Below are positions 5,001 through 50,478 of a stretch of 54,320 nucleotides of DNA, in pieces. The notes beneath the pieces are model-generated. The model saw nothing but the letters and a program-made list of their open reading frames with translations, had not been told where the DNA came from and searched no databases. The translations under genes were made by a program, and so were the position numbers. Every line of letters begins with the position of its first letter. Within the stretch, counting starts at the first letter, position 1. The stretch is from a virus: positions 1 to 54,320 of the IMG/VR virus record IMGVR_UViG_3300031673_000059; one strand, 5' to 3'.

Positions 5001-5400
5001 CCTCGACCATTTCGGTCGTAGGGAAGTGACTCGGGAACTCACGTGTGACGCGGTACCACTCACGCCCGGTCCACGGGTACTTCGCCATCAGGAATGGCTC
5101 GTCGAAGGTCCGCTTGACCTGTTGCTGGGCCGTCTCATCATCAGGGTCCGCAGTGGGACCCATCATGAACTCACCCGAAGGGATCAGAACGAAGATCATC
5201 CCCGTCGTCTTGTGCTGATACTCAGCCAGGCCTTGGGAGTTGAGCCCGAGACACGAGAAGAGCTCAGTCTCCTCTACGCGCAGTCCGTAGGGGACGTCGT
5301 TTCCGGCCCTGCGGATTCGCGTGATGTAGTCGCCGCGATCGGCCGCGTCGCCTGTAGCCTGCCAACGGCGTTCTGCTGCTCTTAAAGCGGCGTCTGACAT
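2095..5400 (-). CDS. Large 1101-aa protein. N-terminal FGE-sulfatase (SUMF1/EgtB-like) domain of about 340 aa, then a roughly 500-aa Ser/Pro/Thr/Gly/Asp-rich low-complexity tract, then an unknown C-terminal domain of about 240 aa.
   Basis: N-terminal motifs MIFVLIPSGEFMMGP...FDEPFLMAKYPWTGREWYRVT and RYPNGDTDED...NNWGLHDNCGNVFEWTRCQW match the FGE family signature (xIPAGxFxMG ... GLyDMsGNVWEW). RBS AGGAGA lies 5 nt before the ATG at 5400. A single stop-free 3.3-kb frame is extremely unlikely by chance. Confidence 0.8.
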   Translation of the reverse strand: MSDAALRAAERRWQATGDAADRGDYITRIRRAGNDVPYGLRVEETELFSCLGLNSQGLAEYQHKTTGMIFVLIPSGEFMMGPTADPDDETAQQQVKRTFDEPFLMAKYPWTGREWYRVTREFPSHFPTTEMVEEGLNVTRMGDAPFGPATRMELKDSDGRRWGEHPVESVSWDRCREVEDFINRLDFARLTNCKFTHSDQTFTLTWREWEQQVNTDIMPLPVQNQALVFSAEVEAAYQAWLWNEKGERVGFQLPSEAMWEYATKAGATTRYPNGDTDEDLKKIAWFGGEFEDGHKAVGLKDPNNWGLHDNCGNVFEWTRCQWVRGVEDLPENGYIANGEQRPDPTSTPFLTTDSLLHIISTAGPIRSPSATSDEQSEGPRTQDSDQPGEPSSDPTQASPSESACNIIDSSSEATPGMSPPGIGSEAPPSGATTLTEEASGQPGEPGFISSDPTEPSGSTHAARSSSANSDAATSEASSTRTVSHTSSSPSVGMSDDPQRDLQDGETSSGSLSDSLMSPSGQLLDRYADYEHMDAYSDLGMGLGPYAEDATPVGSDPSSPGSGSGGSAGSNSPTQASTPAESGAGTSTTDSDSEGPGERGDSGFGSGLGGRSTQSPHSHPKTAAASSMLTSPRTETGRGSSSATRATQSLTPGSSTPPTSQSPPRIDLRSSEERTRASSPDGSEVPETTSETSDSGAPGEQGDLPLSPGSRRRPNESTSSPSETQPTGCESRPKSRTTSGSTPTRSEAETGRGGIGPIPGGSIPNSPTLRPVHGRHGGPDDVPFGLGPSTAQTSQEQKRRPSWSTQDHSHTSSREPSESPPGTPAVESTYDPSWTEPSSRWGSDPAPSEEVTGSPTSMERPSTPGSSEPVNIVAGSGPGQPGERGDSDFLSGSGSSAALPDPSYSDSTSSAPPSTTAPPSEVWTTVASSEDSTGSATPPIQPSEILATMTRLRQELLQERPGGAAAEAPEFQSIVNRYTQKWAPLLEGVDDSFTRALTGMLLENHQRHMDRVVAEGGSDSAFLRFAGPLVRQGLSNPFWPPPLQPLDNRAGMLFYLDNISRRGKSRAARGTYWCCVEPEPGHRNPIVGEHDDVGLRAAWRGR

Positions 5401-5428: not shown

Positions 5429-6817
5429 TCAGACTCCAAAGAGCGCATGGAAGAAGCTCTTGGGCTGGTAGGCCTTCTTCTCGGGCTGCTTGGGCGTGAC
5501 CTTGACATTGGGCGAACTGGGACCACTCGACGGATCGAGTCGCAGCAGCTCATCACCGCTCATGGGGCCCCGAAGGAAGCTGTAGGCCCACCGGATCTTG
5601 GTCACAGCGTGCTCCCCGCTCTTCTTCAGGATCAGGAAGTGCCGCTGAGGAATCGACGTCAGGGTCGACGTGTCCACGTTCCGGCTGGAAAGCTCCTTCT
5701 TGAGGTCCCGGGCGCAGTCCCGGGGCCGCAGCTTGCCGAGGAACCAAGTGCCGACGTTGGTCAGCGCCTTGTAGTCCATGTCGTTAGGGTTCTGAGTCCC
5801 GATCAGCATACCGATGCCCTGGGCCCGGCCCTGAGCGAGGAGCGTGCAGATCGGCTTCTTGGTCGGCGGGTTGAGCGGGTAGGGCGGGAGGTAGCCCCGC
5901 GCCTCGTCCAAGACGACCAGCAGCTTCAGCTTGTTGCTGGCCGGCGCCCGGAACATGTAGTCCACGATCGCCGACAGCAGCATGCCAGCGAAGAACTGCC
6001 GCTCACCCTCGTCCAGGTGTCGGAGGGAGAACACCGAGACCTTAGGCTTGCCGGTGCCCACGTAGCTCTCGATCGAGAGCGGAGAACCGTCGAGCCACTT
6101 GGTCGCTTGCCGCCGGAAGCCGACGATCGACCGAGCGATCTGCATCCGCTTCTTCTTGGGGAAGAAGTCGTCGAGGCTCAGGCCATCGATCTCCTTCAGA
6201 TTGGCAGGGGGCGTGTTCAGAGCGGCGGACCACGTGTCCAGACCGGCCGCCTGACCCGAGGCCCAGGCGTCGACCATCACGTCCGTCAGGAAGACGTTCG
6301 CGGGGTCGGTCATGGGGTCGGCGGTGTGGCCGATCGCGTTGAGGACTCCGGCGACCAGGGCCGAGGCCCGGTCCCGCAGCGCTTGCTCACTGTAGTTGCC
6401 GGTGGGAGCGTCGAAGGACGCCAGGACGTTGACGGACTGGCCGCCGCCTCGGGTCTTGCCGGGGGCGTAGATCGTGACATCGGCGGCCGACTTCCACCGC
6501 TGGACGTTGGGAGCCAGGTGGCCGAGCTCCTTCCGAGCTCGGTCAGCGATCTCGCCCGGGTCCTTGCCGTCCTCCGCCCAGGGAGCGAATTCGCCGGCGG
6601 CCAGACCGGGGAAGGCCAGGGCCAGATTGGTGAGGTCGCCCTTGGGGTCAATGATGATCGCGGACGCGCCGCTCAGCACGGCCTCTTCGATCGTGGCGAC
6701 GGTGGCGCCGGTCTTGCCGGAGCCGGTCCGACCCAGGACCACGCCGTGGGTGGTAAGGTCGGCGGGGTCGATCGTGAGAGGAGTTCCGTCGTTCTTGGTG
6801 CCGATCAACATGCTCAT
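5429..6817 (-). CDS. HerA/FtsK-like P-loop ATPase (DUF87-type).
   Basis: Walker A GRTGSGKTG and Walker B LLVVLDEA. The start is placed at the internal ATG at 6817 (MSMLIGTK...) because the GGTAGAAA-N5-ATG start-associated motif precedes it. The ORF track begins at 6856. Confidence 0.75.
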   Translation of the reverse strand: MSMLIGTKNDGTPLTIDPADLTTHGVVLGRTGSGKTGATVATIEEAVLSGASAIIIDPKGDLTNLALAFPGLAAGEFAPWAEDGKDPGEIADRARKELGHLAPNVQRWKSAADVTIYAPGKTRGGGQSVNVLASFDAPTGNYSEQALRDRASALVAGVLNAIGHTADPMTDPANVFLTDVMVDAWASGQAAGLDTWSAALNTPPANLKEIDGLSLDDFFPKKKRMQIARSIVGFRRQATKWLDGSPLSIESYVGTGKPKVSVFSLRHLDEGERQFFAGMLLSAIVDYMFRAPASNKLKLLVVLDEARGYLPPYPLNPPTKKPICTLLAQGRAQGIGMLIGTQNPNDMDYKALTNVGTWFLGKLRPRDCARDLKKELSSRNVDTSTLTSIPQRHFLILKKSGEHAVTKIRWAYSFLRGPMSGDELLRLDPSSGPSSPNVKVTPKQPEKKAYQPKSFFHALFGV

Positions 6818-6909
6818 GGTTGTTTCTACCTTTCTTAGCCTTGTGGCTTCAACCACTACGCCGCCCTGCCACGATTCATCGAACTCGGGTATCAGTAAGC
6901 AGGTGACTT

Positions 6910-7644: not shown

Positions 7645-8076
7645 TCAGATGTCAGCTAATCGATCGAGGATGGTGGTCGTCTTGGCGATTGGTCTTGGAA
7701 CAGAGTCGGATACGAATAACGGTGAATCGAAGTTAACGGTCATGCCGCCCTCAGGCATTCGGCCGAAGGCCTCGGCCCGCCTGATCACTTGCTGGAGGTC
7801 CCACGCTATCTTGCCCCCTTTCGTAGGGCAACCAGAGATTCCGTGGGAGTGATTGGGGTGGGTGAGCTCGGGAAAGCACAGCTGCCGGGCCTTGTAGAGC
7901 GCATCTTCGCAGGACTTAGAAGCAGCACTGTCAGACAGCTTGTTCCAGAACTGCTCTTGAATGATGTTGAACTGGCCGATGTGAACCCGCGCGAATAGGT
8001 CGAGCGCCGTGACGACCAGCCTGGCCTGCTCCGGCGTCATTGTGACTTGGACGAAGAAGTTCTCGTTTCCGCTCAT
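7645..8076 (-). CDS. Hypothetical protein.
   Basis: 143-aa ORF with no recognised domain. Confidence 0.5.
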   Translation of the reverse strand: MSGNENFFVQVTMTPEQARLVVTALDLFARVHIGQFNIIQEQFWNKLSDSAASKSCEDALYKARQLCFPELTHPNHSHGISGCPTKGGKIAWDLQQVIRRAEAFGRMPEGGMTVNFDSPLFVSDSVPRPIAKTTTILDRLADI

Positions 8077-8125
8077 GGCGTTTTATACCGGACTGAACCC
8101 TCGCTTGTCCGGGTAGAAGAATCCC

Positions 8126-11059: not shown

Positions 11060-11113
11060 CTATCGGAAGGGGCGACCTCAGGCGGCGGTATAATCACTCA
11101 TCCGGGAGTGTTC

Positions 11114-14347: not shown

Positions 14348-14852
14348 GGCCCCTCCATCCGTTCATTTGTGGATTTCAGCCTGATTCGAGCCTTTTATAC
14401 CTGATTTCTCTTTCGACGATCGCCTCCGATGCCCTAAATAAGTGGAAGATTCTACATGTCATTAGCAGGTGATGACTCGGCCAAGTCCAAGTAACGTAAC
14501 GTCTTAAAGAAAATCTCAGGAAAGCTTGATCCTCACTCTCAGATCCGTATAACAGGGGCACTCAGCGGTTGTTGGGTGTTGCGGGTTGCTTTCGGGCGGC
14601 GCGCAGTCGAGACCTGGGACGGACATCGACTTCGGTTGATGGAGAGAAGGGTCGAGGGCGACGACTTGTGGTCGGAGGTCATACTCTGCTGCAGGAGACG
14701 GGCTCCTCAAGGGTGAGTCTCTTGAAGGCGGCGCCGAGTGGAGGCGACAACTAGCCGAACGGGTAATGCCGTCGGCGGGTGCAGCAGACCTTGTTTCCAG
14801 CCACTCTAGGGCGGGCAGAGCAGGGACGAAGACAACCGGCGGGACACGAAGA

Positions 14853-14983: not shown

Positions 14984-16183
14984 ATGTCTGGATTCGCGAC
15001 AGCGGGTACTGGTTCAGAGGGTGTTCTAAACGCCGTTTCGCACTCTGGAATCGACCACACGGGTATTCTCGGGGTCGGATCCGGAGGTGGCGACGCGTTT
15101 CCCATCGGGTGCATGGTCCCCTTTGGGGCCCTTGTCTCCGCCATTCCAGCCGGGTGGCTGGCCTGTGACGGGTCGGAGTATGGGCGTACAGGCGGAGACC
15201 CGAGCCCACAGCCCACGCTGTTTGGAATCATCGGCACCGCCTGGGGCATCGGTGACGGGTCCACTACCTTCAACGTCCCAGATCTCCGACACCGTGGTGT
15301 TGCCGGCATCAACGACGGAACACTACCTGCCGGCCCCGACGGTGGGTTCACCACTCGATCCCTTGGACAGCTCGCCGGCTCCGAGACCCACTCCCACACC
15401 GTCAACAACCACTCCCACACCATCTCGTCAGACGGAGCTCACACCCACACAGGCACTACTGATCCCAACGGTGTCAACATTATTGAGAGCTTGGCACCCA
15501 CTTACCCTGGTAACGACGGCATCAACTCGCGTCACACCCACACGTTCACCACCGGCGGCGCATCTCCTTCGACCCACTCTCACGGCTCGGTCACTGGACA
15601 ATCCAACCCGTCTACCAACGCGCAGCCTGGGTTCGGTCCGACCGCGTTCTGCCCGTTCATCATCAAGGCTGTAGCAGTTGGCGGTGGGGCTGGTGGTATC
15701 TCGAACCAGGTCAACGCAGGTCCTCTCCAGGGACCCCAGCCCACGATCAACTACATCGAAGGCCCCGGGATCTCGATCACGGCGGTGGAGAACATTCCTC
15801 AGAACCGCAACGACGTTACGATCAACGCCACTGGGGCGTTCGCGACACTTCCCTTCGGGTGCACCTTCGTCACTCCGAACAACTACGCAGTCGCCCACGG
15901 CGATGGTGCTCAGACTGAGATTGGATCTCTTACGGTGATCACTCAGACAGCATCACCGATTGCCGGCGGAACGGTCACACTGTCGTGGAACGTCTCTTTC
16001 TCCGGAGGAGATGCTCGCGTGTTCGTGAATGGGGTTGCCGCCGGCACACCGGTCACCCTCTCCACAGCTAACGGCGCTAGTGCGCAAGCGATTGCCGTCG
16101 CGGCCGGGGACAGGATCGCGGTCGAGTATCAGACCGGAACAGCGCCCGGACCTGCTCTCTTTGAGGTACACGTAGGCCCGTAG
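14984..16183 (+). CDS. Tail fibre-like protein with a phage tail-collar domain.
   Basis: PAGWLACDGSEYGRTGGDPSPQPTLFGIIGTAWGIGDGSTTFNVPDLRHRG matches the tail-collar (PF07484-type) signature. The C-terminal region is Gly/Thr-rich and beta-rich. The RBS is GGGGTGATC. Confidence 0.8.
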   Translation: MSGFATAGTGSEGVLNAVSHSGIDHTGILGVGSGGGDAFPIGCMVPFGALVSAIPAGWLACDGSEYGRTGGDPSPQPTLFGIIGTAWGIGDGSTTFNVPDLRHRGVAGINDGTLPAGPDGGFTTRSLGQLAGSETHSHTVNNHSHTISSDGAHTHTGTTDPNGVNIIESLAPTYPGNDGINSRHTHTFTTGGASPSTHSHGSVTGQSNPSTNAQPGFGPTAFCPFIIKAVAVGGGAGGISNQVNAGPLQGPQPTINYIEGPGISITAVENIPQNRNDVTINATGAFATLPFGCTFVTPNNYAVAHGDGAQTEIGSLTVITQTASPIAGGTVTLSWNVSFSGGDARVFVNGVAAGTPVTLSTANGASAQAIAVAAGDRIAVEYQTGTAPGPALFEVHVGP

Positions 16184-16186
16184 GTC

Positions 16187-16636
16187 CTAGTAGTTCTCAA
16201 ACTCGGCGTGGCCCTCATCGATGAGTGTGTCGCCTAGGCTCTTCCAGCCGCCCTCTACCTTGTATAGGCACACAATTAGCCAACGGCCATATTTGCCCTT
16301 GTCGCCGCTCTTGAAGGACCAGACGCGGAGCTTCTGACCGACGCCTAGGAGCTCCTCGGCGCGCTGCTCGGCCAGAGCACCCATCTCCTTCTCCTTGCCC
16401 CGCGTCTCCCAGGCGTCGACGCAGTCGTCGCTCTTGTCGTCTGGGGTCAGGACGGCGCCCTCGGCCAGCAGGCGGCAGTAGGCTCGGACATCGATCTCGA
16501 AGCCGATGTCAATTCGAAGGCGGAAGCTATCGCCGTCGATGACTCCTTCTAGTTTGCCCACATCCGGCACGACCTCAGCCTCTCTCCAGGGTGTATCGAA
16601 AGGCGTCGTCTCTTCGTCGGTCCACAGCTTGCCCAT
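16187..16636 (-). CDS. Thermonuclease (SNase)-like nuclease.
   Basis: VIDGDSFRLRID...RLLAEG...GRWLIVCLYKVEGGWKSLGDTLIDEGHA gives a partial SNase motif pattern. Confidence 0.5.
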   Translation of the reverse strand: MGKLWTDEETTPFDTPWREAEVVPDVGKLEGVIDGDSFRLRIDIGFEIDVRAYCRLLAEGAVLTPDDKSDDCVDAWETRGKEKEMGALAEQRAEELLGVGQKLRVWSFKSGDKGKYGRWLIVCLYKVEGGWKSLGDTLIDEGHAEFENY

Positions 16637-16692
16637 GAGCGGCCTCCAGGTGTCTGTAGGCTACATCATTAGGCGGGTAGGTAGAATAGGGT

Positions 16693-17058
16693 ATGAAGAC
16701 CGGCGCGAGGAAGGCAGTCGTCCGTAAGCTACGGAAGATGGTGAACCGGCATATCGGCAACATGGTCGATGAGAAGTTCGAAATGGGCTGCCTGGCGGCA
16801 AGTCTGTTCCCGGACTGGGTTGAGAGCGACTACTCCACCTTTGATCTTTACCTGTTCCACGGCTGTGGAATCCCATGGAACATCGCCAGTCGCCTGGAGA
16901 CGATGGCTCACACCTACTACGAGATTCCATCTCTTCAGATTTGGATGCAGGTGGGATACACAAGAGCCGCCCAAGCAGCCGGACAAGGCCGAGAGGGCCA
17001 AATCCGAGCGCTGCTTGAAAGCGGCTCTAATGTGCTAGACGTGATGACGTTGATCTAG
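16693..17058 (+). CDS. Hypothetical protein.
   Basis: 121-aa ORF. GGTAGAAT lies 5 nt upstream of the ATG. Confidence 0.55.
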   Translation: MKTGARKAVVRKLRKMVNRHIGNMVDEKFEMGCLAASLFPDWVESDYSTFDLYLFHGCGIPWNIASRLETMAHTYYEIPSLQIWMQVGYTRAAQAAGQGREGQIRALLESGSNVLDVMTLI

Positions 17059-18140
17059 ACGGCGATCGGCGCTTCGGTGCAGACCGTGGTGAGGATCCTG
17101 GTGCAGACCCGGTAGGGGTCGCAGTTGGCTCCGGGTCGCCGATCTTCGATGTAGCCGTAGCCCTGCTGGGCTACCTGGGCGGGGATGCGGATCGAGCAGC
17201 CGCGATCACTGTCACCGACCTTGAACGTGTTGATGTCGCACGTCTCGTGCTTGCCGGTCAGGCGCTTCTCCAGGCCGAAGCCGTAGTCTGCGATGTGCTC
17301 GGCGTGGACCTCCGACATCGCCTTGACCGCCGCCGCGATAGCCGACTTGCCGGTGCCTGGGTCTCGCATCTCCTTCGTGGAGAAGTTTGTGTGAGCGCCC
17401 GCACCGTTCCAGTCGCCTTGCTCAGGCTTGCAGTTGAGGGTGGCCGAGATGCCGTAGTCCTCGCCGATCCGGAACAGGAGCCAACGCGCAAAGATCAGGT
17501 GATCTGCGACTGTGAGAGGGTCGGCTGACTCGCCCGGGAACCCAGGACGATGACCGATCTGGAACTCCCACTGACCCAGCATGACTTCGGCATTGATGCC
17601 GTAGATCATCAGCCCGGCCCTCATGCAGGCGCTGAGGTGATCCTCGACCAGCTTGCGGCCCGCAACCTCGTCAGCTCCGACGCCGCAGTAGTAGGGTCCC
17701 TGAGCGCGCTGCGGGAGTCCCTTCTCCGGCCATCCAAGGGGGCGGCCAGTGTCTAGGTTGTAGAGCGTGTACTCCTGCTCGAAGCCGAACCAGGGATCGT
17801 GGTCCTCAGCGACCGACATGATGTCCCGCAGACGGCTGCGAGTGTTGGTCTTGTGCGGCATGTCGTCTGGAGTGGTGACCTCGCACAGGACCAGGAAGTT
17901 GGCGCCGCCGCGAATCGGGTCGTTGACGACGCGAACCGGGGTGAGCACCTGGTCTGAGTTGGACGTCCCCGCCTGATTGGTCGACGAGCCGTCGAAACCC
18001 CAGACCGGAAAGGACGTGTAGTCGATGACGCCCTTCTGATCATCGGGTAGATAGACCACACGGGTCTTCGACCGAAGGTTCTGGACAGGGATGTCGGCGG
18101 ATCCGCCGTCCATCCAGATGTATTCAGCTCGTACGTGCAT
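17055..18140 (-). CDS. glnII: Glutamine synthetase type II (eukaryote-like GSII).
   Basis: EYIWMDGGS N-terminus, GPYYCGVG, NAEVMLGQWEFQIG, DWNGAGAHTNFST and CSIRIP are hallmark GSII motifs. Length is 361 aa. RBS AGGAAGGG. Confidence 0.85.
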   Translation of the reverse strand: MHVRAEYIWMDGGSADIPVQNLRSKTRVVYLPDDQKGVIDYTSFPVWGFDGSSTNQAGTSNSDQVLTPVRVVNDPIRGGANFLVLCEVTTPDDMPHKTNTRSRLRDIMSVAEDHDPWFGFEQEYTLYNLDTGRPLGWPEKGLPQRAQGPYYCGVGADEVAGRKLVEDHLSACMRAGLMIYGINAEVMLGQWEFQIGHRPGFPGESADPLTVADHLIFARWLLFRIGEDYGISATLNCKPEQGDWNGAGAHTNFSTKEMRDPGTGKSAIAAAVKAMSEVHAEHIADYGFGLEKRLTGKHETCDINTFKVGDSDRGCSIRIPAQVAQQGYGYIEDRRPGANCDPYRVCTRILTTVCTEAPIAV

Positions 18141-18226
18141 AAGGCCCTTCCTGACTAATGGGGTTTGAAAGGGCAGTTTATAGCGTACTTAGGGCCGCCT
18201 CGTCGAGCCAGCTCTTATGATCGGGC

Positions 18227-18421
18227 TCATTCACCGATCAGAGCGGCGGCCAGCGTGTTCATGAACGGGCCCACCACAGCATCGTTGCTGAGTCGACGAG
18301 CCGTCATCACCACGCGTGGCATATCGATGTGGTCCTCCGCGCATAGAGAGCGGATGATGGCTTGAGCTTCCTCACCTTTGAGTGAGGCCAACCAACGAAG
18401 CAGGTGTTCTTCAGGTGTCAT
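18227..18421 (-). CDS. Hypothetical small protein of 64 aa.
   Basis: MTPEEHLL... with AGGAGA 5 nt upstream. The 216-aa track ORF is an antisense extension. Confidence 0.5.
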   Translation of the reverse strand: MTPEEHLLRWLASLKGEEAQAIIRSLCAEDHIDMPRVVMTARRLSNDAVVGPFMNTLAAALIGE

Positions 18422-18429
18422 AGGGTCTC

Positions 18430-19611
18430 CTAGTCTATTGATCCGACGATCCGATCGAGCACACCGACCATGTCGAGCATTGTCCCTAGGTATTCGATCG
18501 CCTTGTCTTTCCCCCAGGCGTGGAGCAGACACTCCCTCTCCTTGGGGCCGCCCTTGCAGGTTACCCCGTCCTTCTCGCCGAGCGCCTTGACTACGCTCGA
18601 ATCGAACGCCTCGTTGTTCTTCCTCTGCATCTTGATGTTGATGACCCTCTTCCGAGGGCCGATGGTGATGGTGTAGTCGCCGTAGGCGATGGCGTACCAA
18701 GGCTCGTTTTTGAACTGGTCCTTGTAGTAGCCGTTGGGGAGCTCCGTCCTCGTCTTGTTGGCCAGTCCGACCGCCTCGAAGATCTCGTTGAAGAGCTTGG
18801 CGTGCCGGAGCTTGATCGGGTCGACCGGGACCTCGATTTCCTGACTCCGCCCTGCGTCCACCGCCTCCCAGGTCCACTCGCCGTCGACCTTGTTCTGGAT
18901 CCAGACGCTGACCTCATCGCCGGGAACCTGGGGAGGGATAGGGGACGCAGGGTGCCCAGTCTGGTACCAGGACTTCTTGCCGGCCGCCGCGTGGGCTTCG
19001 AGCGCGTCTAGGATCTCCTGGGAGTGTCTCTTTACCTCGTAGAGGGCGTTCTCGGCCATGTTCTTGAGAACTGCCATCCGGTCGATGGCGTCAGGGGCGT
19101 CCATCATGCCCCATTCCGAGCCCGGGTCTGACACCCGCCTCTTCCAGTTGGGCTCCCACTGACCGATGGTTTTCAGGAGGCCGAGGAGCAGAGGACCCTT
19201 CTTGGGCTCGGCTACCCCGCCATCGAGAAGCGGAAAGACCAGCATCCCGATCGGGCCTCCGGCTCCGAGTTCGGCCAGCCTAGCGACAGCAGTGTTCCGA
19301 TCTGCCTCAGGGGTCAAGGGGGTGACAAGCGCTCTGAGCTGAGAGACCTCTTCGTCGAAGGCGGCCTTGTTGGCCCGCCAGGTCTTGAGGACCGTGCCGT
19401 TGAACCAGTCGGCCACCCTCTCGGAGAGACCCTCGCCCGGCTTCCGCATGAGCATGAAGAGGTTCCCGCCGTCGGCGGCCATATGGACCCCGAACCGGTC
19501 GCAGCCCTTGCACTTGAAGTTGCTCTGCGACATCCCGCCGAAGGAACCACCGTGACCCTGCCACTTAGGCGCGGCGCAGATACAGGACGGTACGTTCTCT
19601 GGCAACGCCAT
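18430..19611 (-). CDS. Hypothetical protein of 393 aa.
   Basis: Long ORF in an operon. Its ATG overlaps the TAA of the NADAR gene (TAATG). Confidence 0.65.
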   Translation of the reverse strand: MALPENVPSCICAAPKWQGHGGSFGGMSQSNFKCKGCDRFGVHMAADGGNLFMLMRKPGEGLSERVADWFNGTVLKTWRANKAAFDEEVSQLRALVTPLTPEADRNTAVARLAELGAGGPIGMLVFPLLDGGVAEPKKGPLLLGLLKTIGQWEPNWKRRVSDPGSEWGMMDAPDAIDRMAVLKNMAENALYEVKRHSQEILDALEAHAAAGKKSWYQTGHPASPIPPQVPGDEVSVWIQNKVDGEWTWEAVDAGRSQEIEVPVDPIKLRHAKLFNEIFEAVGLANKTRTELPNGYYKDQFKNEPWYAIAYGDYTITIGPRKRVINIKMQRKNNEAFDSSVVKALGEKDGVTCKGGPKERECLLHAWGKDKAIEYLGTMLDMVGVLDRIVGSID

Positions 19612-20048
19612 TAGGGCATCTCCATGATCTCTGCTCTGATATCCATCAAAATGCGGCCCAAGTGATTTTCTCCCTCACCCTCACAGACCCCCCAAAAGGT
19701 GTCGCGCCAAGAGTTTCCTTCGACCAGGTGCTGTCGTCCGGTCAGGATCAACTTCTCTCTGAGTCCAGGGTTCTCGAACTTCTTCCGCAGGATCCCTTTC
19801 ATCGTAGCGAGCTTGCAGATCCGCTCATTCTTGGTCCAGCCCTTAGACAGGGTGACCTTCTGGCCCAATCGCTTAGCCTTGCCGCAGGACTTGGCCTCCC
19901 TGATCTCTCGCCTTTGCTCAGGATCATCAGTCTTGGCGGCCTGATAGGCATGCTCTGAAGATGGATAAACGTCCCCCTGCCACTCGATGTCGATCATGTG
20001 GAAGTTGGAGAGCCAGCGGTATTCGCCTTTGAAGTCGGTGATGCTCAC
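19611..20048 (-). CDS. NADAR (YbiA/DUF1768) domain protein.
   Basis: YRWLSNFH...SSEHAYQAAK...LILTG...WGVC matches NADAR family motifs. The GTG start at 20048 overlaps the upstream TGA (GTGA). Confidence 0.75.
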   Translation of the reverse strand: MSITDFKGEYRWLSNFHMIDIEWQGDVYPSSEHAYQAAKTDDPEQRREIREAKSCGKAKRLGQKVTLSKGWTKNERICKLATMKGILRKKFENPGLREKLILTGRQHLVEGNSWRDTFWGVCEGEGENHLGRILMDIRAEIMEMP

Positions 20049-20314
20049 TTCGGCCCCTGACCGTAGGCGTGGTCCCAGTGCTCGTCTTCGGCGATCTCTT
20101 GGTCGGTCGGCAGTCTGTCGACCGTCACCACAGCCTCCAGCCGAGGGGCACCGAGGAGCGGGTAGTTGAAGACCCATTCCACACTCAGGACCTTCATTCG
20201 GTCGTCACTGATGTGCTTGTTGCGGAGGATCGACCCGACGGGCGGTGGCCCGTCTACAGCCTTCATCCTGTAGGGGTCTGGTACGACCCCTGGCCCTTTG
20301 TGCTTGATGATCAT
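20045..20314 (-). CDS. Hypothetical protein of 89 aa.
   Basis: MIIKHKGPG... ATGA overlap with the upstream gene. Confidence 0.5.
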   Translation of the reverse strand: MIIKHKGPGVVPDPYRMKAVDGPPPVGSILRNKHISDDRMKVLSVEWVFNYPLLGAPRLEAVVTVDRLPTDQEIAEDEHWDHAYGQGPK

Positions 20315-20892
20315 TTGTTGAACTGCTCGTAGTCTTCCTCGTCGTAGGCACGACAGGACGGATGATGGGCGTTGCCGCGACTCTCGCCGCAGCAGCACTC
20401 GGAGACGTGTTTGCCGCAGTCACACCACTCGGACGATCGCGACCCCGCCGCGTAGGTCTGGAGCGTGGGCTTAGGCGCAGGCTCAACCGGCTCGATGGGA
20501 GCTGGGCCGACCTTGCCGATCAGCTTGGGGCGGCGCTTCCCCCAAGCCCTGAGTTCTTCTACGTTCGGCGGCCGCCACTCACCAGTCCAGTGCTCGGACG
20601 TGTCCCACTCCTCGGGGTCCTCAGGGTGGTTCGACCTGTAGCTCGTGAGCTTGAGCTCGCCCTCGAATACCCACACACCAGGGGCAGGGGGCTCATCCAA
20701 GCCGTAGTCGCAGATGGACATCGACATGATGTTCTCCACGTAGACGCTGAACATCGGCTTCTCCTCTTCCCAGCTCAGGAGCATGCCATCGCTGCCGTCA
20801 TGCGGAACGGCGGCAAAGACCTTGATCTTCTGGGGACCGCATGTGCCACCCCGGTCGCCTGGTAGCTTGATTTGTTCTCCTCGTGTGCTCAT
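20311..20892 (-). CDS. Hypothetical protein with a Cys-rich C-terminus.
   Basis: MSTRGEQ... start overlapping the upstream TAA (TAATG). The C-terminus reads CDCGKHVSECCCGESRGNAHHPSC. Confidence 0.55.
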   Translation of the reverse strand: MSTRGEQIKLPGDRGGTCGPQKIKVFAAVPHDGSDGMLLSWEEEKPMFSVYVENIMSMSICDYGLDEPPAPGVWVFEGELKLTSYRSNHPEDPEEWDTSEHWTGEWRPPNVEELRAWGKRRPKLIGKVGPAPIEPVEPAPKPTLQTYAAGSRSSEWCDCGKHVSECCCGESRGNAHHPSCRAYDEEDYEQFNK

Positions 20893-21509
20893 TAGGGCTT
20901 CAGCTCCTCTGCAAACCGTGTGTCTTCGGACGCGACGTGCTGCATGAACCAGCACAGCGCTTGATACCTGAAGTAGGTATTGACGTCGTGGTCCCTAAAG
21001 CTGGGAGGATCGTCGTAGTCGTGGGAGGAACAGATCTCATGCCATTCCCGCTCGGCCTCCCGTGGATGGTCCTTGGACGGGAACTCTCTCCAAGCCCGAA
21101 GCATCTTGATGTAATTGGTCACTGACGTCTTGTCGCCGGTCCTCCGCTCCTCGCCGATCCGCTCGACGAGGTAAGCCTCAACCGCGTCCGCGTCGAAGAC
21201 TTCGTTCTGGTTCTGGAGCGAGAGCTTGGACATCGGGTAGTAGGGCTGGTCGGGCTTCATCTTGCAGCCCAGCGCCCACCGGAGCGGCTTCCGGTGGTTC
21301 ACATTCAAAACCATGTCGCCGATGTCGCCAGTGACGACGATGCTGCCGGGCACCATGATCACTCTGAAGTGATAGACCCCGGTGCCCTTCTCGCCGCAGA
21401 ACCACAATCCGGGCCCCTCCCTGGTGATCTGATGCTTGTCGAAGGTCTGGAACCCGACGACCTGTTCCAGTGCCTTCTCGTTGTTCGTCTTGGGACGTGC
21501 CTTGTTCAT
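20892..21509 (-). CDS. Hypothetical protein, first gene of a long minus-strand operon.
   Basis: 205-aa ORF. Confidence 0.55.
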   Translation of the reverse strand: MNKARPKTNNEKALEQVVGFQTFDKHQITREGPGLWFCGEKGTGVYHFRVIMVPGSIVVTGDIGDMVLNVNHRKPLRWALGCKMKPDQPYYPMSKLSLQNQNEVFDADAVEAYLVERIGEERRTGDKTSVTNYIKMLRAWREFPSKDHPREAEREWHEICSSHDYDDPPSFRDHDVNTYFRYQALCWFMQHVASEDTRFAEELKP

Positions 21510-21565
21510 AGCGTCTTTTACCCGTCGATCGACACAGATACGAGGTAAACAAGTCTTAGGAACAG

Positions 21566-22423
21566 ATGAGATATTACGACAAACGAGGAAACCCCATTAC
21601 GCTGGAGCAGTGGTCTGTTCTCCTCAACGACCCTGACTACCAACGGGTTGCGATCGACCAAGGCTCGGGCAGGCAGGTCTCCACCGTCTGGTTGGGACTG
21701 GATCACCGGCATGGAAGAGGCGGATCGCCGCTTATCTTCGAGACCATGGTCTTTCCGATGAGTCCTAACGGTGATGTAGGCGTGGGCGAAATCGACGCCG
21801 ATCGATACTCCACCCTGGAAGAGGCCCTAGCAGGCCACGCAGAGATGGCAAAGGATCACGCTTACGTGCTGGACAAGATCGTCAGGAAGCTGGAGGAGTC
21901 CGACAAGTCGGTCAAGGTCTGGACCATTCAGACGGAGGCGGCCTACGAGGAGCTCAAGGCGGAGGGAACGCTCTACGGTGACTGGAGCCGGGTGGACAAG
22001 GACTTCAAGAAGGCCTACTACTGGCTCTGCCATCAGATGGAGAATAGGGGCATGAGACTGAGGGGGCGGCCGCCGATCTGGGCTTGGCAGACGAAGCCCG
22101 ACCTCCGGCACAACGCCCATCTCGAAAAGGGCGAGAAGGGCGTTCGACTGGAGTTGGAGGTTCCGTCGGTTGAGCTTCTGGCGTCGAACTACAGTGCATG
22201 GCACTGCGTGCTCAACGATCACTACCTCACGTCTACCGACGCCGAGACCGACAAGGCGTTCTCTGATGACGGCTACACCAGGGATGAGATCGAGCTCAGC
22301 TGGCAGAAGGTGTTCGACCTGGACTACTGCGTGTCCGCCGACTACGGGTCTGCGGTCCAGCTGACGATGCCGGCCCTGGAGCTCCACTACGTGAAGAAGG
22401 CTCAGGCGTTTCGAGGACGGTAG
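21566..22423 (+). CDS. Hypothetical protein with a DUF3841-like C-terminal half.
   Basis: VKVWTIQTEAAYEELKAEGTL resembles the N-terminus of DUF3841 proteins. RBS AGGAACAG. Confidence 0.5.
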   Translation: MRYYDKRGNPITLEQWSVLLNDPDYQRVAIDQGSGRQVSTVWLGLDHRHGRGGSPLIFETMVFPMSPNGDVGVGEIDADRYSTLEEALAGHAEMAKDHAYVLDKIVRKLEESDKSVKVWTIQTEAAYEELKAEGTLYGDWSRVDKDFKKAYYWLCHQMENRGMRLRGRPPIWAWQTKPDLRHNAHLEKGEKGVRLELEVPSVELLASNYSAWHCVLNDHYLTSTDAETDKAFSDDGYTRDEIELSWQKVFDLDYCVSADYGSAVQLTMPALELHYVKKAQAFRGR

Positions 22424-22610
22424 GCCTCTCGTGAGCCCTCGTTCGCGGGTCCGGACGCTTGACCTTTCCGGTGATCTTTCGGGTAAAAGCCTTTGTCTCT
22501 TGGGTCACGTGGCCCCCGCAGGTCGAGCAGAGCCAACCTGCCTCTGTAAGCTCGCACCTACGGGCATCAGCATCAGTCTTACAGAGGACGCACTTGACGG
22601 TCACATCACT

Positions 22611-24187: not shown

Positions 24188-24285
24188 GAAGTCTTATACC
24201 TCTATTCGTGGTGGTTGATTCACCCACCACGAGTGGCCGAGCTGATTCATCGAGTTCTAGTGGTATGGCCGGTGATCCACGTCGG

Positions 24286-33840: not shown

Positions 33841-34806
33841 CTAGTAGGGCGTTCCGGCCAACGTGATCAGAGATGCGAACTCCGGCCTCACGAGTGTGAT
33901 TTTGTGCCGGGTGCGGATCGCGCGCCGAAGAGTCTTGTCGGCCGGATCTACGAAGTTCGGTGTGATCTCGACCATGGTGTAAGGACTGTAGATGACGCAC
34001 GTATCCATTACGCTGTCGTCTGCCTGATACCAGGCCAGCAGCTTCCCTACGGGGAAGAGGGGATCCAGGTAGACGCCCCTGCCGTCAACCTCGCCGATTT
34101 TGGCGATGCCGTCTGCCTCTTGGACGTCAAAGCCAAGCTGGGCCAGCATCGCCGCGTTGCCAATGACCCTGTTTGCCGGGTTCCGCTGAGACCCCCGATG
34201 GACGATGTGGGCCGCCCTGTCCAGAGCTTCTTTGAGATCACCGCCGGCGGCCAACTCGATCTTGTTGTTGTCCAGGACGCCGTTCAGGATCGTTCCTACG
34301 ATCTCCCGAGCCACCTCGGTCAGGAGTGCGTCGATGTTCAGAGCCCCCTCTTCGTTGACGTCGGTGTGTGCCTTGCAGCGCCTCGACTCCGCTCGGATCT
34401 CTTGAGGGATGATGTCCAGCACGACGGAAGGCACCTTGACCTTCCTCTCGACGCCGTCTTGAATCAGGGTCGCCTCCTCCATCTCCCCGAAGCGCGGCTT
34501 GTAGTAGTAGACGATCCCGATCGGCCCAGTCATCGGCTGCACCGCGCAGAGGTCCGGGAGCACGTGGGTCCGGACCGAGGCCTTGAGGTTATCGAAGAGA
34601 TCCTCCGTCCACGAGCCGAGGACCAATGCCCGGGTCTCCTCGACGAGACGCTGAAGGTGTCTGCTCTGGTTCTCGCAGACCATGGCAGCGATGTTCGACC
34701 TGTAGCCGTCCTCTAGGCCCCACTTGGTGCGGAGCTTCTCTAGATAGCTCTCGTCCGGCATACCATCAAGCTGAGTCATAGTTCCTCCTGATGCGGAGGG
34801 TACCAC
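33841..34806 (-). CDS. T4 gp24-like capsid vertex protein (paralog of 34825..35778).
   Basis: KLRTKWGL...AMVCENQ, VQPMTGPIGIV, NPANRVIGNAAMLAQLG and YLDPLFP...VIYSPY match conserved T4 gp23/gp24 blocks (KW..L.G...A.I..FENQ; CGVQPM..P.G; N.I..S.N....L; Y.D....YYAPY). Confidence 0.6.
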   Translation of the reverse strand: MVPSASGGTMTQLDGMPDESYLEKLRTKWGLEDGYRSNIAAMVCENQSRHLQRLVEETRALVLGSWTEDLFDNLKASVRTHVLPDLCAVQPMTGPIGIVYYYKPRFGEMEEATLIQDGVERKVKVPSVVLDIIPQEIRAESRRCKAHTDVNEEGALNIDALLTEVAREIVGTILNGVLDNNKIELAAGGDLKEALDRAAHIVHRGSQRNPANRVIGNAAMLAQLGFDVQEADGIAKIGEVDGRGVYLDPLFPVGKLLAWYQADDSVMDTCVIYSPYTMVEITPNFVDPADKTLRRAIRTRHKITLVRPEFASLITLAGTPY

Positions 34807-34824
34807 AACTACATCAGATTTACA

Positions 34825-35778
34825 TCAGACAATCTGCGCCAACCGCTCCAGGACGTTGACCTTAACCACCTGGATGTGGCTCGGATGGGCCACATGGATG
34901 TTGTGGTTCAGGTAGATCGCGAAGTTGTGGCGGCCGTCCATCGGATCGAGCGGGTAGCAGAAGGGCGAGTAGACGACCGGCGTGTCTACGATGCTTGGTC
35001 CCATGTACCAGAGCATTACTTCACCGTCAGGGAACAGCGGATCCAGGTAGACGTGCATCCTCTGCTTGTAGACGCCTACCTTCTTCACCAGGCCGGTATC
35101 AGTCGTGTCCCACTCGTCCGGATCCTCCGGCGAGAAAAGCTCCAACATCTTCTCATTGCCGATCACGTGATTGGCCGGGCCCCGCATGCAGCGCTTGTGG
35201 ACCATCTGCGAGGCGCGAAGGATATCAGTGTCGAACGCGGTGTAGGTCGACTCCAACACATTGCCGGCGGCCGATCCCGCGCCGTGCATGACGCCCAACA
35301 CCTCGCGGATGGACGCCAGCATGACCGAGTCGAACACGCTGTCGATGAGCGCGAAGTTTCCTGGGTAGATCCTGACGCCGAGTCGCCTGATGGAGGCTTG
35401 GACGTTGACCGTCTGCAGGTTCAACGTCATCGTCGGGATCGATGTGCTCCCAGGAGTAGTGGGTCCGGCCGGCGTGGTGATGTTGGTTTGGCCGTAGAAG
35501 CCGATGGTGTCTGATGGCCTCCGTAGGGGCTGGACCGACACCATGTCGATCAGGGGGCAGTGCACCCAGGCCTTCACGAGAGCTCGGTAGAACTTGTCCT
35601 TCCAGTTGTCGCCATAGGTCTCTTCCAGATCATCGGGGATCAGCGATGAGCAAAGGACGTTGGCCTGGTTCTCCAACAGTAGAGCGATGACGCCAGAGCG
35701 CTTGTGATGGCCGGGGAGGTAACCCTCCCACTTCTCGGTCAGAGCCTTGATGTGGTCGTTGTCCAACATGGTGGGCAT
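34825..35778 (-). CDS. T4 gp23-like major capsid protein (short form).
   Basis: LTEKWEGYL...ALLLENQ, VQPLRRPSDTIGFYG, GPANHVIGNEKML and YLDPLFPDGEVMLWY...VVYSPF. Paralog of the adjacent gene. Confidence 0.6.
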   Translation of the reverse strand: MPTMLDNDHIKALTEKWEGYLPGHHKRSGVIALLLENQANVLCSSLIPDDLEETYGDNWKDKFYRALVKAWVHCPLIDMVSVQPLRRPSDTIGFYGQTNITTPAGPTTPGSTSIPTMTLNLQTVNVQASIRRLGVRIYPGNFALIDSVFDSVMLASIREVLGVMHGAGSAAGNVLESTYTAFDTDILRASQMVHKRCMRGPANHVIGNEKMLELFSPEDPDEWDTTDTGLVKKVGVYKQRMHVYLDPLFPDGEVMLWYMGPSIVDTPVVYSPFCYPLDPMDGRHNFAIYLNHNIHVAHPSHIQVVKVNVLERLAQIV

Positions 35779-40450: not shown

Positions 40451-40483
40451 CCTAGAACCTCGCTCGTGCTTAGTGAAATCGGA

Positions 40484-40502
40484 TCTCGCGCGAAGCGCGA
40501 GA
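40484..40502. promoter_or_regulatory. Perfect palindrome TCTCGCGC-GAA-GCGCGAGA in a divergent promoter region. CGGTATAAC-N7-ATG lies at 40547..40565.
   Basis: Read directly from the sequence. Confidence 0.4.
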
Positions 40503-40562
40503 CCTAGTGTAGTGCGCAGGCTTCCTTTTACCCTATCGGCCGAATTCGGTATAACAAACCCC

Positions 40563-41027: not shown

Positions 41028-41253
41028 GTTCGACCTAGCCATCGAGCACTTCACTGAGTGCGGCGATGCGGCTCAGCCGAAGGCGTGGATCTCGGACCCC
41101 AAGACAGGCATGCACGTCGAGTTCGTGTGCCCTAAGTGCAAGTTGAAGTACTGGCGGCACAATGAGACCTGGGAGTTTGAGATCAGGGGCGTCGGCAGGA
41201 TCTGTGCCAACAACCCTACAGTCCTCGATCTACTTACCCTGGGAGAGGTATAA
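40963..41253 (+). CDS. Hypothetical protein with a basic N-terminus and a zinc-binding motif.
   Basis: 96-aa ORF. Confidence 0.45.
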   Translation: MSKQKPKKRAQRLKRAKRRKHRFDLAIEHFTECGDAAQPKAWISDPKTGMHVEFVCPKCKLKYWRHNETWEFEIRGVGRICANNPTVLDLLTLGEV

Positions 41254-41894: not shown

Positions 41895-41963
41895 CGATAG
41901 CTCGATAGCTCGGAGCCACATCACAGGTATAAGAAACCACCAACCTGCAATGGAGAATAAAGA

Positions 41964-50397: not shown

Positions 50398-50478
50398 TCC
50401 GAACCCTCCGCCACCAGATTAGTCCATCATTCCGCGAACGGCAGGGTAGAGCCCTTTCCGGCTGGGTATAAGTGATGA

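What the first reader, a model, noticed from the sequence alone, without database searches (positions are those of the whole stretch)
17055..18140. Eukaryote-type glutamine synthetase II as the last gene of a phage operon
The 361-aa product carries every GSII hallmark I can recall: the EYIWxDG N-terminus, GPYYCGVG, NAEVMxGQWEFQIG, DWNGAGxHTNFST and a C-terminal RIP. It has its own strong RBS. It is the distal gene of a roughly 4.4-kb minus-strand operon (21509 to 17055) whose genes are chained by TAATG/ATGA/GTGA overlaps and which also encodes a NADAR protein. A phage-borne GS would be an auxiliary metabolic gene acting on host nitrogen assimilation during infection. GSII is usually confined to eukaryotes and a few bacteria such as Rhizobiaceae and Streptomyces. 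That distribution also hints at the host range.
Basis: partly seen in the sequence, partly recalled or inferred. Interest (0 to 1): 0.6.

Follow-up and report, generated by a model that had tools for sequence, protein, structure and literature searches.

The report
Phage-borne bacterial-type glutamine synthetase II
A fragment of a large tailed phage carries an intact, conserved bacterial-type (type II) glutamine synthetase gene; this kind of phage metabolic gene has been seen before in metagenomes, so it is a solid but fairly ordinary example.

Summary
ORF 17055..18140 (-) encodes a 361-aa type II glutamine synthetase (GSII). Its best solved relative is Streptomyces coelicolor GS 4bax (E 4e-108; predicted-fold TM 0.88/0.92). 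All 24 active-site positions checked are conserved, and dN/dS against close phage relatives is 0.09-0.14. The contig is viral: two T4-type capsid paralogs, portal, tail collar, ligase, helicase and NADAR, with no cellular housekeeping genes found. The same gene order recurs in three other samples and, with synteny, on 150-kb and 203-kb phage contigs.

- The enzyme belongs to the bacterial GSII branch, not the eukaryotic one.
- GSII is widespread in bacteria (at least 574 species-representative genomes across many phyla; best identity 62%), so it says nothing about host range.
- The GS is probably not simply the last cistron of the operon. An 86-bp gap upstream holds a motif, GTACG[C/G]TATAA, conserved upstream of GS across the phage clade. 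In deeper relatives GS is a lone gene on the opposite strand.

The GS belongs to a 35-sequence clade (bootstrap 90) with no named cellular genome; every member whose context I checked is phage-like. Phage GS genes are already reported in surveys (247 huge phages, moraphages, jumbo phages). This is a new member of a known kind. Activity and host are untested.

The parts
17055..18140 (-). Glutamine synthetase type II (bacterial GSIIB branch), 361 aa, with beta-grasp N-domain and catalytic C-domain
   Evidence: ORF. Pfam Gln-synt_C 3.7e-12 and Gln-synt_N 3.9e-08. PDB 4bax E 4e-108. 24 of 24 active-site positions conserved. AF2 pLDDT 91.7 and Foldseek 4bax TM 0.88/0.92. dN/dS 0.085-0.144.
18147..18152 (-). 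Shine-Dalgarno AGGAAG, 6 nt upstream of the GS ATG
   Evidence: Sequence. SD-like AGGAG, GGAAG or GAGGGAG at the same spacing in L001, L043 and L125-127.
18178..18188 (-). GS-specific conserved upstream motif GTACGCTATAA; the core GCTATAA(A) is a -10-like promoter element
   Evidence: The 11-mer GTACG[CG]TATAA occurs once per locus, always 35-45 nt upstream of GS, in window copies L040-42 and in L001, L125, L126 and L127. The core GSTATAA occurs 11 times in the window against 1.76 +/- 1.25 expected. TATAAA occurs only 3 times in the window, all intergenic and upstream of genes.
18141..18226 (-). 86-bp non-coding spacer between the 64-aa gene and GS; it holds the motif and the SD
   Evidence: L040: gene end 9914, GS start 10001.
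18227..18421 (-). 64-aa gene of unknown function, directly upstream of the spacer
   Evidence: Called independently in L040, L041 and L042.
18430..19611 (-). 393-aa gene of unknown function
   Evidence: No Pfam, PHROG or PDB match. Absent from L043 and L001.
19611..20048 (-). NADAR-domain protein, 145 aa from a GTG start; probably a counter-defence ADP-ribosyl hydrolase
   Evidence: Pfam NADAR 6e-22 and phrog_1017 1e-38. Gene call. Phage NADARs neutralise DarTG1 (PMC11825919).
20045..20314 (-). 89-aa gene of unknown function (ATGA and GTGA overlaps)
20311..20892 (-). 193-aa gene of unknown function (starts in TAATG)
   Evidence: 41% identity to a gene in L001.
20892..21509 (-). 205-aa gene, first gene of the same-strand cluster (phrog_4657, unknown function)
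   Evidence: No PDB match.
16693..17058 (+). 121-aa convergent gene whose stop overlaps the GS stop by 4 bp
   Evidence: Homologs at the same position in L043 (45%) and L001 (43%). Unrelated to the analogous convergent gene in L125-127.

Best explanation
The gene encodes a catalytically competent type II glutamine synthetase of the bacterial GSIIB branch, carried as an auxiliary metabolic gene by a large tailed phage with a T4-type capsid. The window is a 54-kb fragment; syntenic relatives lie on contigs of 150 and 203 kb.

Proposed mechanism: during infection the enzyme makes glutamine from glutamate, ammonium and ATP, adding to or replacing host GS activity. Glutamine is the amide-nitrogen donor for purine, pyrimidine, NAD and amino-sugar synthesis. 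The likely benefit is therefore to sustain nucleotide and protein precursor supply for a large genome. Because it is a GSII, it should escape the GlnE adenylylation switch that inactivates bacterial GSI.

It is probably transcribed from its own promoter-like element (GTACGCTATAAA, about 42 nt upstream of the ATG), not only by read-through from the upstream overlapped gene cluster.

Shown here: family membership, intact active site, fold, purifying selection, viral context, a phage-only clade, and the conserved upstream motif.

Inferred: enzymatic activity, decameric assembly, independence from host regulation, promoter function, timing of expression, and the benefit to the phage.
For: Identity:
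- phmmer E 4e-108 to S. coelicolor GS 4bax and about 1e-94 to animal and plant GSII, against 2e-5 to GSI.
- AF2 model pLDDT 91.7, with Foldseek top hit 4bax at TM 0.88/0.92.

Active site: all 24 checked positions are conserved. In human numbering these are D63, S66, W130, E134, E136, Y162, G192, N194, E196, E203, N248, G249, H253, N255, S257, R262, R299, E305, R319, R324, Y336, E338, R340 and R341. They include the ammonium-deprotonating Asp, the flap Glu and the ATP and phosphate arginines, whose roles are described in PMC5192420.

Selection: dN/dS is 0.085 against L001 and 0.144 against L043.

Viral context:
- Two Gp23-type capsid paralogs, a portal PHROG, tail collar, ligase, helicase and replication initiators. 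Most ORFs have no hits, no cellular housekeeping genes turned up in the family scans, and there are no tRNAs.
- Identical gene order in three independent assemblies.
- Synteny on 150.8-kb and 203.5-kb contigs; the 203.5-kb one is from the IMG/VR viral collection.

Lineage:
- The GS sits in a 12-sequence clade (bootstrap 98) inside a 35-sequence clade (bootstrap 90) with no named cellular genome.
- Four deeper members all sit among phage-type genes such as NT5C, dCMP deaminase, tRNA nucleotidyltransferase and homing endonucleases.
- The clade shares an N-terminal insertion, DGGSxxxPVQ.

Own transcription unit:
- An 86-bp gap precedes the GS.
- The 11-mer is found only upstream of GS in 7 loci.
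- The core motif is six-fold over-represented, and it is also conserved upstream of the helicase gene in relatives.
- GS is a lone + strand gene among - strand genes in L125-127.

Precedent: GS genes are reported in 247 huge phages, nine moraphages and jumbo phages.
Against: - No activity, expression or host data exist.
- The window contains no other nitrogen-assimilation or glutamine-using biosynthetic gene that would tie the GS to a pathway.
- The generic sigma-70 scan found no full promoter in the region, so the promoter role of the motif rests on conservation and position only.
- The tree is neighbour-joining on sequences pre-selected by similarity to the query, and deep nodes are unresolved (bootstraps 2-34). 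The donor lineage is therefore unknown, and 'phage-only clade' rests on seven inspected contexts out of 35.
- The Pfam N-domain score (33.3 bits) is 0.1 bit below the gathering cut-off, although the precomputed annotations list the domain.
Confidence: 0.75

Rival explanations
1. The enzyme is active, but its selective value lies in manipulating host nitrogen signalling or ammonia handling rather than supplying precursors. Raising glutamine would mimic nitrogen sufficiency to the PII/NtrC-type circuits and shut down host scavenging programmes. Alternatively it could re-assimilate ammonium released by phage deaminases and nucleotide turnover.
For: Related phages of the same GS clade place GS a few genes from dCMP deaminase and nucleotidase genes, which release or process nitrogen. 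The window has no glutamine-consuming biosynthetic genes.
Against: No PII, GlnB/K, NtrC-like or amtB-type gene turned up in the window. The host, and hence its regulatory circuit, is unknown. This reading is not separable from the precursor-supply model with sequence data.
Confidence: 0.12
2. The protein is a GS-fold gamma-glutamyl ligase that uses an amine other than ammonia, such as ethylamine or a polyamine, for instance to make a modified nucleotide or metabolite for the phage.
For: From my own knowledge, not checked here: GS-fold enzymes have repeatedly been recruited to other amines. documents one set of cases, S. coelicolor GlnA2-4, which are gamma-glutamyl-polyamine or -ethanolamide synthetases. 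The clade has a specific N-terminal insertion in the beta-grasp domain, which contributes to the neighbouring subunit's active site. Nucleotide-modifying genes are neighbours in related phages.
Against: The ammonium-pocket residues (D63, S66, Y162, E305 equivalents) and all glutamate and ATP ligands are invariant, as in bona fide GS. The GlnA2-4-type enzymes are GSI-like, not GSII. Overall identity to a characterised GSII structure is 53%.
Confidence: 0.05
3. The region is host chromosome or a chimeric assembly, and the GS is simply a bacterial glnII gene.
For: The nearest named sequences are bacterial MAG genes (60-62%). GC content (about 0.61) is in a typical bacterial range.
Against: Viral genes flank the GS on both sides (tail collar, nuclease, NADAR, ligase). 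GC is uniform across the window. The same arrangement was assembled independently in three samples and is syntenic on 150-kb and 203-kb phage contigs. The family scans found no cellular housekeeping genes.
Confidence: 0.02
4. The gene is a decaying or catalytically dead GS homolog (pseudoenzyme).
For: None found.
Against: 24 of 24 active-site positions are intact. dN/dS is 0.085-0.144. The reading frame is full-length and intact in all relatives. The fold is predicted with confidence.
Confidence: 0.02

Closest known systems
Bacterial glutamine synthetase II (GlnII / GSIIB), e.g. Streptomyces coelicolor GS, PDB 4bax
   Same: Same two-domain architecture and length class, 53% identity, TM 0.88/0.92, and identical metal, ATP, glutamate and ammonium ligands. 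It shares the mid-protein F/Y/H-R-G...E-x-A-D insertion with many proteobacterial GSIIB sequences, though not with 4bax itself.
   Different: It is encoded by a phage. It belongs to a separate 35-sequence clade at most 62% identical to any named cellular GSII. It has a clade-specific 3-residue insertion (DGGSxxxPVQ) in the first beta-hairpin and Leu in place of Pro in the EVMPGQWEFQ motif. Its upstream regulatory sequence is a phage-type GTACGSTATAA element; it bears no resemblance to the NtrC or GlnR control known for cellular glnII genes (my knowledge, plus for GlnR).
Glutamine synthetase AMGs of huge, jumbo and 'mora' phages reported from metagenomes
   Same: A GS gene carried by a large tailed phage from an aquatic or subsurface sample, interpreted as manipulation of host nitrogen metabolism. 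Reports: 248 genes in 247 huge phages (bioRxiv 10.1101/2025.02.27.640493); nine moraphages (PMC12619734); jumbo phages (PMC13037316). The four GenBank huge phages LR756501, LR756503, LR745206 and LR756502 also encode GSII.
   Different: Identity to the GenBank huge-phage GSIIs is only 45-47%, and 46-57% to all IMG/VR loci other than L001. This lineage is therefore a separate viral GSII clade. In the passages I read, those papers do not separate GS types, test catalytic residues or describe a conserved cis-element.
Eukaryotic GSII (GSIIE): human, dog, maize, Medicago and Drosophila enzymes
   Same: Same fold and active site, with 45-47% identity.
   Different: The window protein groups with bacterial sequences (bootstrap 74 for the split setting apart seven sequences, read from the leaf order as the four eukaryotic references plus three giant-virus GS). 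It carries the bacterial-type insertion after WEFQIG, where eukaryotes have a different loop.
Giant-virus (Nucleocytoviricota) glutamine synthetases
   Same: A virus-encoded GSII (L035-L037, L039).
   Different: Identity is only 39-43%. L035-L037 have plant GS as their nearest neighbours, which implies an independent acquisition from eukaryotic hosts.

Membership tests
Glutamine synthetase type II (GSII) | N-terminal beta-grasp domain plus C-terminal catalytic domain in a roughly 340-380-aa chain (GSI is about 470 aa and GSIII about 730 aa) | tested here: met
   361 aa. Pfam Gln-synt_C 46.4 bits (cut-off 24) and Gln-synt_N 33.3 bits (cut-off 33.4, marginal); both domains are in the precomputed annotations. 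End-to-end alignment to GSII chains.
Glutamine synthetase type II (GSII) | Sequence closer to GSII than to GSI or GSIII | tested here: met
   E 4e-108 to 1e-92 for 16 GSII chains, against 2e-5 and 6e-5 for archaeal GSI.
Glutamine synthetase type II (GSII) | Metal ligands (E134, E136, E196, E203, H253, E338 in human numbering) | tested here: met
   Window residues E121, E123, E185, E192, H250 and E332, all invariant in 233 sequences. The role assignments come from my knowledge of the human and maize structures.
Glutamine synthetase type II (GSII) | Ammonium, glutamate and ATP site residues (D63, S66, Y162, N248, G249, R299, E305, R319, R324, Y336, R340, R341) | tested here: met
   Window residues D50, S53, Y151, N245, G246, R293, E299, R313, R318, Y330, R334 and R335. 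Roles of D63, E305, R324 and R340/R341 are given in PMC5192420.
Glutamine synthetase type II (GSII) | GS fold | tested here: met
   AF2 pLDDT 91.7 and pTM 0.92. Foldseek top 50 hits are all GSII, with TM 0.83-0.92.
Glutamine synthetase type II (GSII) | Decamer of two stacked pentameric rings, with active sites at subunit interfaces | not testable with these tools
   Only a monomer was modelled. Needs SEC-MALS or cryo-EM.
Glutamine synthetase type II (GSII) | ATP-dependent synthesis of glutamine from glutamate and ammonium | not testable with these tools
   Needs an enzyme assay or glnA complementation.
Bacterial GSIIB subclade (as opposed to eukaryotic GSIIE) | Groups phylogenetically with bacterial rather than eukaryotic GSII | tested here: met
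   In the NJ tree, the split that puts the window with 4bax and all bacterial sequences, apart from seven others, has bootstrap 74. The seven are read from the leaf order as the four eukaryotic references plus three giant-virus sequences. Distances: 4bax 0.64, dog 0.75, maize 0.78. Clade definitions are from PMC2978018. The tree is NJ only, with limited eukaryote sampling.
Phage auxiliary metabolic gene (AMG) | A metabolic gene of cellular type located inside a viral genome, with viral genes on both sides | tested here: met
   Tail collar and nuclease on one side; NADAR, DUF3841 and ligase on the other. Capsid and portal genes lie elsewhere on the contig. The arrangement is reproduced in three assemblies and in 150-kb and 203-kb relatives.
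Phage auxiliary metabolic gene (AMG) | Maintained under purifying selection in the viral lineage | tested here: met
   dN/dS 0.085, 0.144 and 0.10 for three pairs. A 35-sequence clade (bootstrap 90) with phage context in every member inspected.
Phage auxiliary metabolic gene (AMG) | Expressed during infection and beneficial to phage replication | not testable with these tools
   No host, transcriptome or genetics available.
Single polycistronic operon 21509 to 17055 with GS as the distal cistron | Same strand, with no internal promoter or terminator between the cistrons | tested here: inconclusive
   The six upstream genes are overlapped or 8 nt apart. GS follows an 86-bp gap that holds a conserved GS-specific promoter-like motif. 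In L125-127, GS with the same motif stands alone on the opposite strand. Read-through cannot be excluded: no terminator-like site lies in the gap.

The most novel reading that the evidence does not exclude
The 35-sequence phage-only GSIIB clade may be an old, vertically inherited viral enzyme lineage that travels with its own dedicated cis-regulatory element, GTACG[C/G]TATAA. The element survives while the protein diverges to about 64% identity and the gene changes neighbourhood and strand. That would make GS plus element a self-contained, specifically regulated expression cassette. The GTACG part could be an operator for a phage or host regulator that ties glutamine synthesis to a stage of infection or to nitrogen status. 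The enzyme, with its clade-specific beta-hairpin insertion, would be insensitive to host GS control.
Probability: 0.3. Interest if true: 0.5.

Novelty: new member of a known kind. Interest (0 to 1): 0.3.

Why it matters
If the enzyme is active, this phage lineage brings its own entry point for ammonium into organic nitrogen, outside the host's adenylylation control. Groundwater is the one documented source, for the closest relative (L001). Large phages would then directly shape nitrogen flow in infected cells.

The gene class is already known from surveys. The added value here is a well-delimited, apparently phage-only GSII clade with an intact active site and a conserved upstream element. That makes it a good, compact candidate (361 aa) for biochemical characterisation; I found none reported for any phage GS in the searches run here. 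It also corrects the idea that GSII points to rhizobial or actinomycete hosts.

Tried and rejected
- Nucleotide search of 15000-22500 against 50,697 deposited phages found no match, so this is not a described phage.
- The generic sigma-70 promoter scan of 16500-21800 gave 0 hits. Terminator-like sites were not above chance (6 against 3.3 +/- 2.1) and none lies in the GS upstream gap.
- I hypothesised that the small convergent gene overlapping the GS stop is a conserved functional partner. Rejected: window/L043/L001 and L125-127 carry two unrelated families, and L124 has none.
- I hypothesised that the mid-protein insertion (HRPGFPGESADP) is phage-specific. Rejected: it is shared with most bacterial GSIIB sequences in the set.
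- The full 10/11-mer as a general promoter class: rejected. It is unique to GS in each locus, and only the GSTATAA core is general.
- A functional link between NADAR and GS is unlikely. The adjacency holds only in the closest relatives, and phage NADARs are documented counter-defence enzymes.
- PDB sequence searches for the 393-aa and 205-aa operon proteins found nothing significant.
- Host clues: no tRNAs. The nearest cellular GS sequences are spread over many phyla. No host inference was possible.
- Terminal repeats or circular overlap: none found, so the contig is a fragment.
- One paper reading failed on a 2-letter term.
- My crude GC3 gene caller put three large genes on the wrong strand. 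This was corrected.
Full report
**1. Observation**

The ORF at 17055..18140 (minus strand) is real: ATG to TAG, 361 aa. An AGGAAG Shine-Dalgarno lies 6 nt before the ATG.

The upstream same-strand genes and their TAATG, ATGA, GTGA and TAATG junctions are as described. Independent gene calls on three other assemblies carrying the identical protein give the same series: 205, 193, 89, 145 (NADAR), 393 and 64 aa, then GS.

There is an additional 64-aa gene. GS also follows an 86-bp non-coding gap, whereas the upstream genes overlap or are 8 nt apart.

**2. What the protein is**

- Pfam finds the GS catalytic and beta-grasp domains.
- Against PDB sequences the best match is 4bax (E 4e-108), followed by about 15 animal, plant and yeast GSII chains (about 1e-94). 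Type I GS scores only 2e-5.
- Foldseek identifies 4bax as the Streptomyces coelicolor glutamine synthetase. It is the top structural match to a high-confidence AlphaFold model (pLDDT 91.7, pTM 0.92; TM 0.88/0.92, 53% identity).

I aligned 233 GSII sequences: the window, 119 database homologs, viral and cellular loci, and five PDB references. All 24 active-site positions I checked are conserved in the window protein and are nearly invariant overall. They cover the six metal ligands and the ammonium-site Asp/Ser/Tyr. They also cover the flap Glu and the glutamate, ATP and phosphate ligands, including R299, R319, R324, R340 and R341.

The roles of Asp63, Glu305, Arg324 and Arg340/341 are described in PMC5192420. 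The remaining role assignments rest on my knowledge of the human and maize structures.

Nei-Gojobori dN/dS against the two closest phage homologs is 0.085 and 0.144. A pseudoenzyme is therefore excluded as far as sequence can tell.

**3. Is it a phage?**

Yes. The window encodes:
- two adjacent Gp23-type major capsid paralogs (33841..34806 and 34825..35778);
- a portal PHROG;
- a tail-collar/fibre protein directly beside the GS block;
- DNA ligase, a DEAD/ResIII helicase, replication initiators, NUDIX hydrolases, a HerA/FtsK-like ATPase and NADAR.

Most ORFs have no family match. No tRNAs or housekeeping genes were found, and GC content is uniform.

The exact GS protein is on record on a 54,320-bp contig, so the window is a whole contig. 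It has no terminal repeat, so it is a fragment.

The closest relatives are a 203.5-kb contig from the IMG/VR viral collection (L001; GS 90% identical) and a 150.8-kb contig (L043; 84%). Both keep the local gene order of nuclease, convergent small gene, GS, NADAR, DUF3841 and helicase. L001's sample is listed as a groundwater geyser in Utah (PMC10159854). No nucleotide relative exists among 50,697 deposited phages.

**4. Evolutionary placement**

In a bootstrapped neighbour-joining tree, the window GS sits in a 12-sequence clade (98%) nested in a 35-sequence clade (90%). That clade contains no sequence from a named cellular genome.

I inspected four deeper members on long contigs: P0008, P0017, P0033 and P0035, at 63-71% identity, on contigs up to 154 kb. 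All lie in dense arrays of small unannotated genes, together with NT5C nucleotidases, dCMP deaminase, tRNA nucleotidyltransferase, PTH2, RlaP and homing endonucleases. These are phage contexts.

The clade shares a small N-terminal insertion (DGGSxxxPVQ). The larger insertion after WEFQIG is common to many bacterial GSIIs and is not phage-specific.

The window protein lies on the bacterial side of the GSII tree (bootstrap 74 for the split excluding seven sequences). From the leaf order I take these to be the four eukaryotic references and three giant-virus sequences. It is closer to 4bax than to animal or plant GS. This matches the published GSIIB/GSIIE division (PMC2978018).

The other IMG/VR GSII loci (46-57% identity) form several separate virus-only clusters. 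Giant-virus copies group with plant GS. GSII therefore appears to have entered or persisted in viruses several times.

**5.

'Eukaryote-type' is only the family's historical label. The claim that GSII is restricted to eukaryotes and a few soil bacteria matches older literature (PMC3975887) but not current data. None was above 62% identity to the window protein. The gene carries no usable host signal.

**6. Transcription unit**

The 86-bp spacer contains GTACGCTATAAA about 42 nt upstream of the ATG.

- The 11-mer GTACG[C/G]TATAA is found exactly once per locus, always at the equivalent position upstream of GS. This holds in the window's copies and in L001, L125, L126 and L127. L125-127 have GS proteins only about 64% identical to the window's, and their spacers are otherwise unalignable.
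- The core GSTATAA occurs 11 times in the window against 1.76 +/- 1.25 expected, and none of 100 shuffles reached 11.
- TATAAA occurs only three times in 54 kb, each time intergenic and upstream of a gene.
- GGTATAAT is conserved upstream of the helicase gene in the window, L043 and L124.
- Several copies lie 6-8 nt before an ATG (for example the ligase), the geometry expected for leaderless transcripts.
- In L125-127 the GS, with this motif, is a single + strand gene among - strand genes.

I therefore infer that GS is primarily its own transcription unit, driven by a -10-like element. A GS-specific 5' extension (GTACG) may be a regulatory site. This is inference from conservation and position. 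A generic sigma-70 scan found nothing, and read-through from the upstream cluster is not excluded.

**7. Mechanism**

The best-supported explanation is a functional GSII used as an auxiliary metabolic gene. It would make glutamine from glutamate, ammonium and ATP in the infected cell.

- Glutamine is the amide donor for purine, pyrimidine, NAD and amino-sugar synthesis (established biochemistry). That suits a large phage with heavy nucleotide demand.
- GSII is not subject to the adenylylation that switches off bacterial GSI (PMC10704036). A phage GSII would therefore bypass that host control.
- The NADAR neighbour is more plausibly a counter-defence enzyme against DarT-type DNA ADP-ribosylation (PMC11825919) than a partner of GS. 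The adjacency is not kept in deeper relatives.

Rivals considered: signalling or ammonium re-assimilation roles cannot be separated from this model by sequence alone. An alternative-amine ligase is disfavoured by the invariant ammonium pocket. Host DNA and pseudoenzyme are both contradicted by the evidence above.

**8. Novelty**

Phage-encoded GS genes are already reported from metagenomes:
- 248 genes in 247 huge phages (bioRxiv 10.1101/2025.02.27.640493);
- nine 'moraphages' (PMC12619734);
- jumbo phages (PMC13037316);
- early viromes (PMC9083009).

Four deposited huge phages encode GSII at 45-47% identity. I found no biochemical study of a phage GS in the searches run.

The finding is thus a new member of a known kind. 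What is new here is the delimitation of a distinct phage-only GSIIB clade and its conserved upstream element.

**9. Verdict**

Interest is modest (0.3). This is a clean, well-supported AMG example and a good candidate for enzymology, but it would not surprise a specialist.

Noticed in passing
window 51302-54319 (+), runs off the contig end: An open frame of more than 1006 codons carries a Major Vault Protein shoulder domain (Pfam MVP_shoulder 1.7e-22) and a weak Vault_3 repeat hit, with no PHROG match. A vault-protein-like giant protein in a phage is unusual. A GGTATAA motif lies just upstream at 51357.
   Followed up: partly
window 33841-34806 (-) and 34825-35778 (-): Two adjacent paralogous T4 Gp23-type capsid genes (Pfam Gp23 1.4e-10 and 1.9e-07). 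This is reminiscent of the gp23/gp24 major-capsid and vertex pair of T4-like phages.
   Followed up: partly
window 8083-8089, 11087-11093, 14395-14401, 24194-24200, 40548-40554, 41247-41253, 41926-41932, 50465-50471, 51054-51060, 51357-51363: A G[GC]TATAA element is six-fold over-represented (11 against 1.76 expected). It is mostly intergenic, and several copies lie only 6-8 nt before an ATG (ligase, gene 7645-8076), which suggests leaderless mRNAs. GGTATAAT upstream of the helicase is conserved in L043 and L124.
   Followed up: partly
window 16693-17058 (+); L125 11074-11427, L126 11065-11409, L127 3810-4163: In most clade members a small gene (114-125 aa) on the opposite strand overlaps the GS stop codon by 4 bp. 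It belongs to two families unrelated by BLAST, and neither has any Pfam or PHROG match. The repeated tail-to-tail overlap architecture is unexplained.
   Followed up: yes
window 2095-5400 (-): A 1101-aa protein with an FGE-sulfatase (formylglycine-generating-enzyme-like) domain (Pfam 2.8e-19) that also matches a PHROG annotated 'kinase' (4.6e-22). Its function in a phage is unclear.
   Followed up: no
window 5429-6856 (-); also L043 20726-end and L124 21069-end: A HerA/FtsK-like ATPase (DUF87, HerA_C) with a weak terminase-large-subunit PHROG hit. A homologous 540-545-aa gene lies in the same neighbourhood in related phages. My first gene map had this region on the wrong strand.
   Followed up: partly
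window, among the 59 ORFs scanned together (exact ORFs not located): The contig also encodes a ClpS adaptor homolog (5.4e-15), a hemerythrin-domain protein, a DHH phosphoesterase (39284-40579), two NUDIX hydrolases, DUF1653 and a nucleoside 2-deoxyribosyltransferase-like protein.
   Followed up: no
L002-L039 (IMG/VR loci): Other viral GSII genes form several separate virus-only clusters, some on contigs of 185-488 kb (L005, L017, L019, L023). Giant-virus copies (L035-L037) have plant GS as nearest neighbours. This suggests multiple independent acquisitions of GSII by viruses.
   Followed up: partly
window 21566-22423 (+): A divergently oriented DUF3841 protein (Pfam 7e-22) is conserved next to the GS-containing block in L001 (54% identity), L043 and L040-42. 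Function unknown.
   Followed up: no
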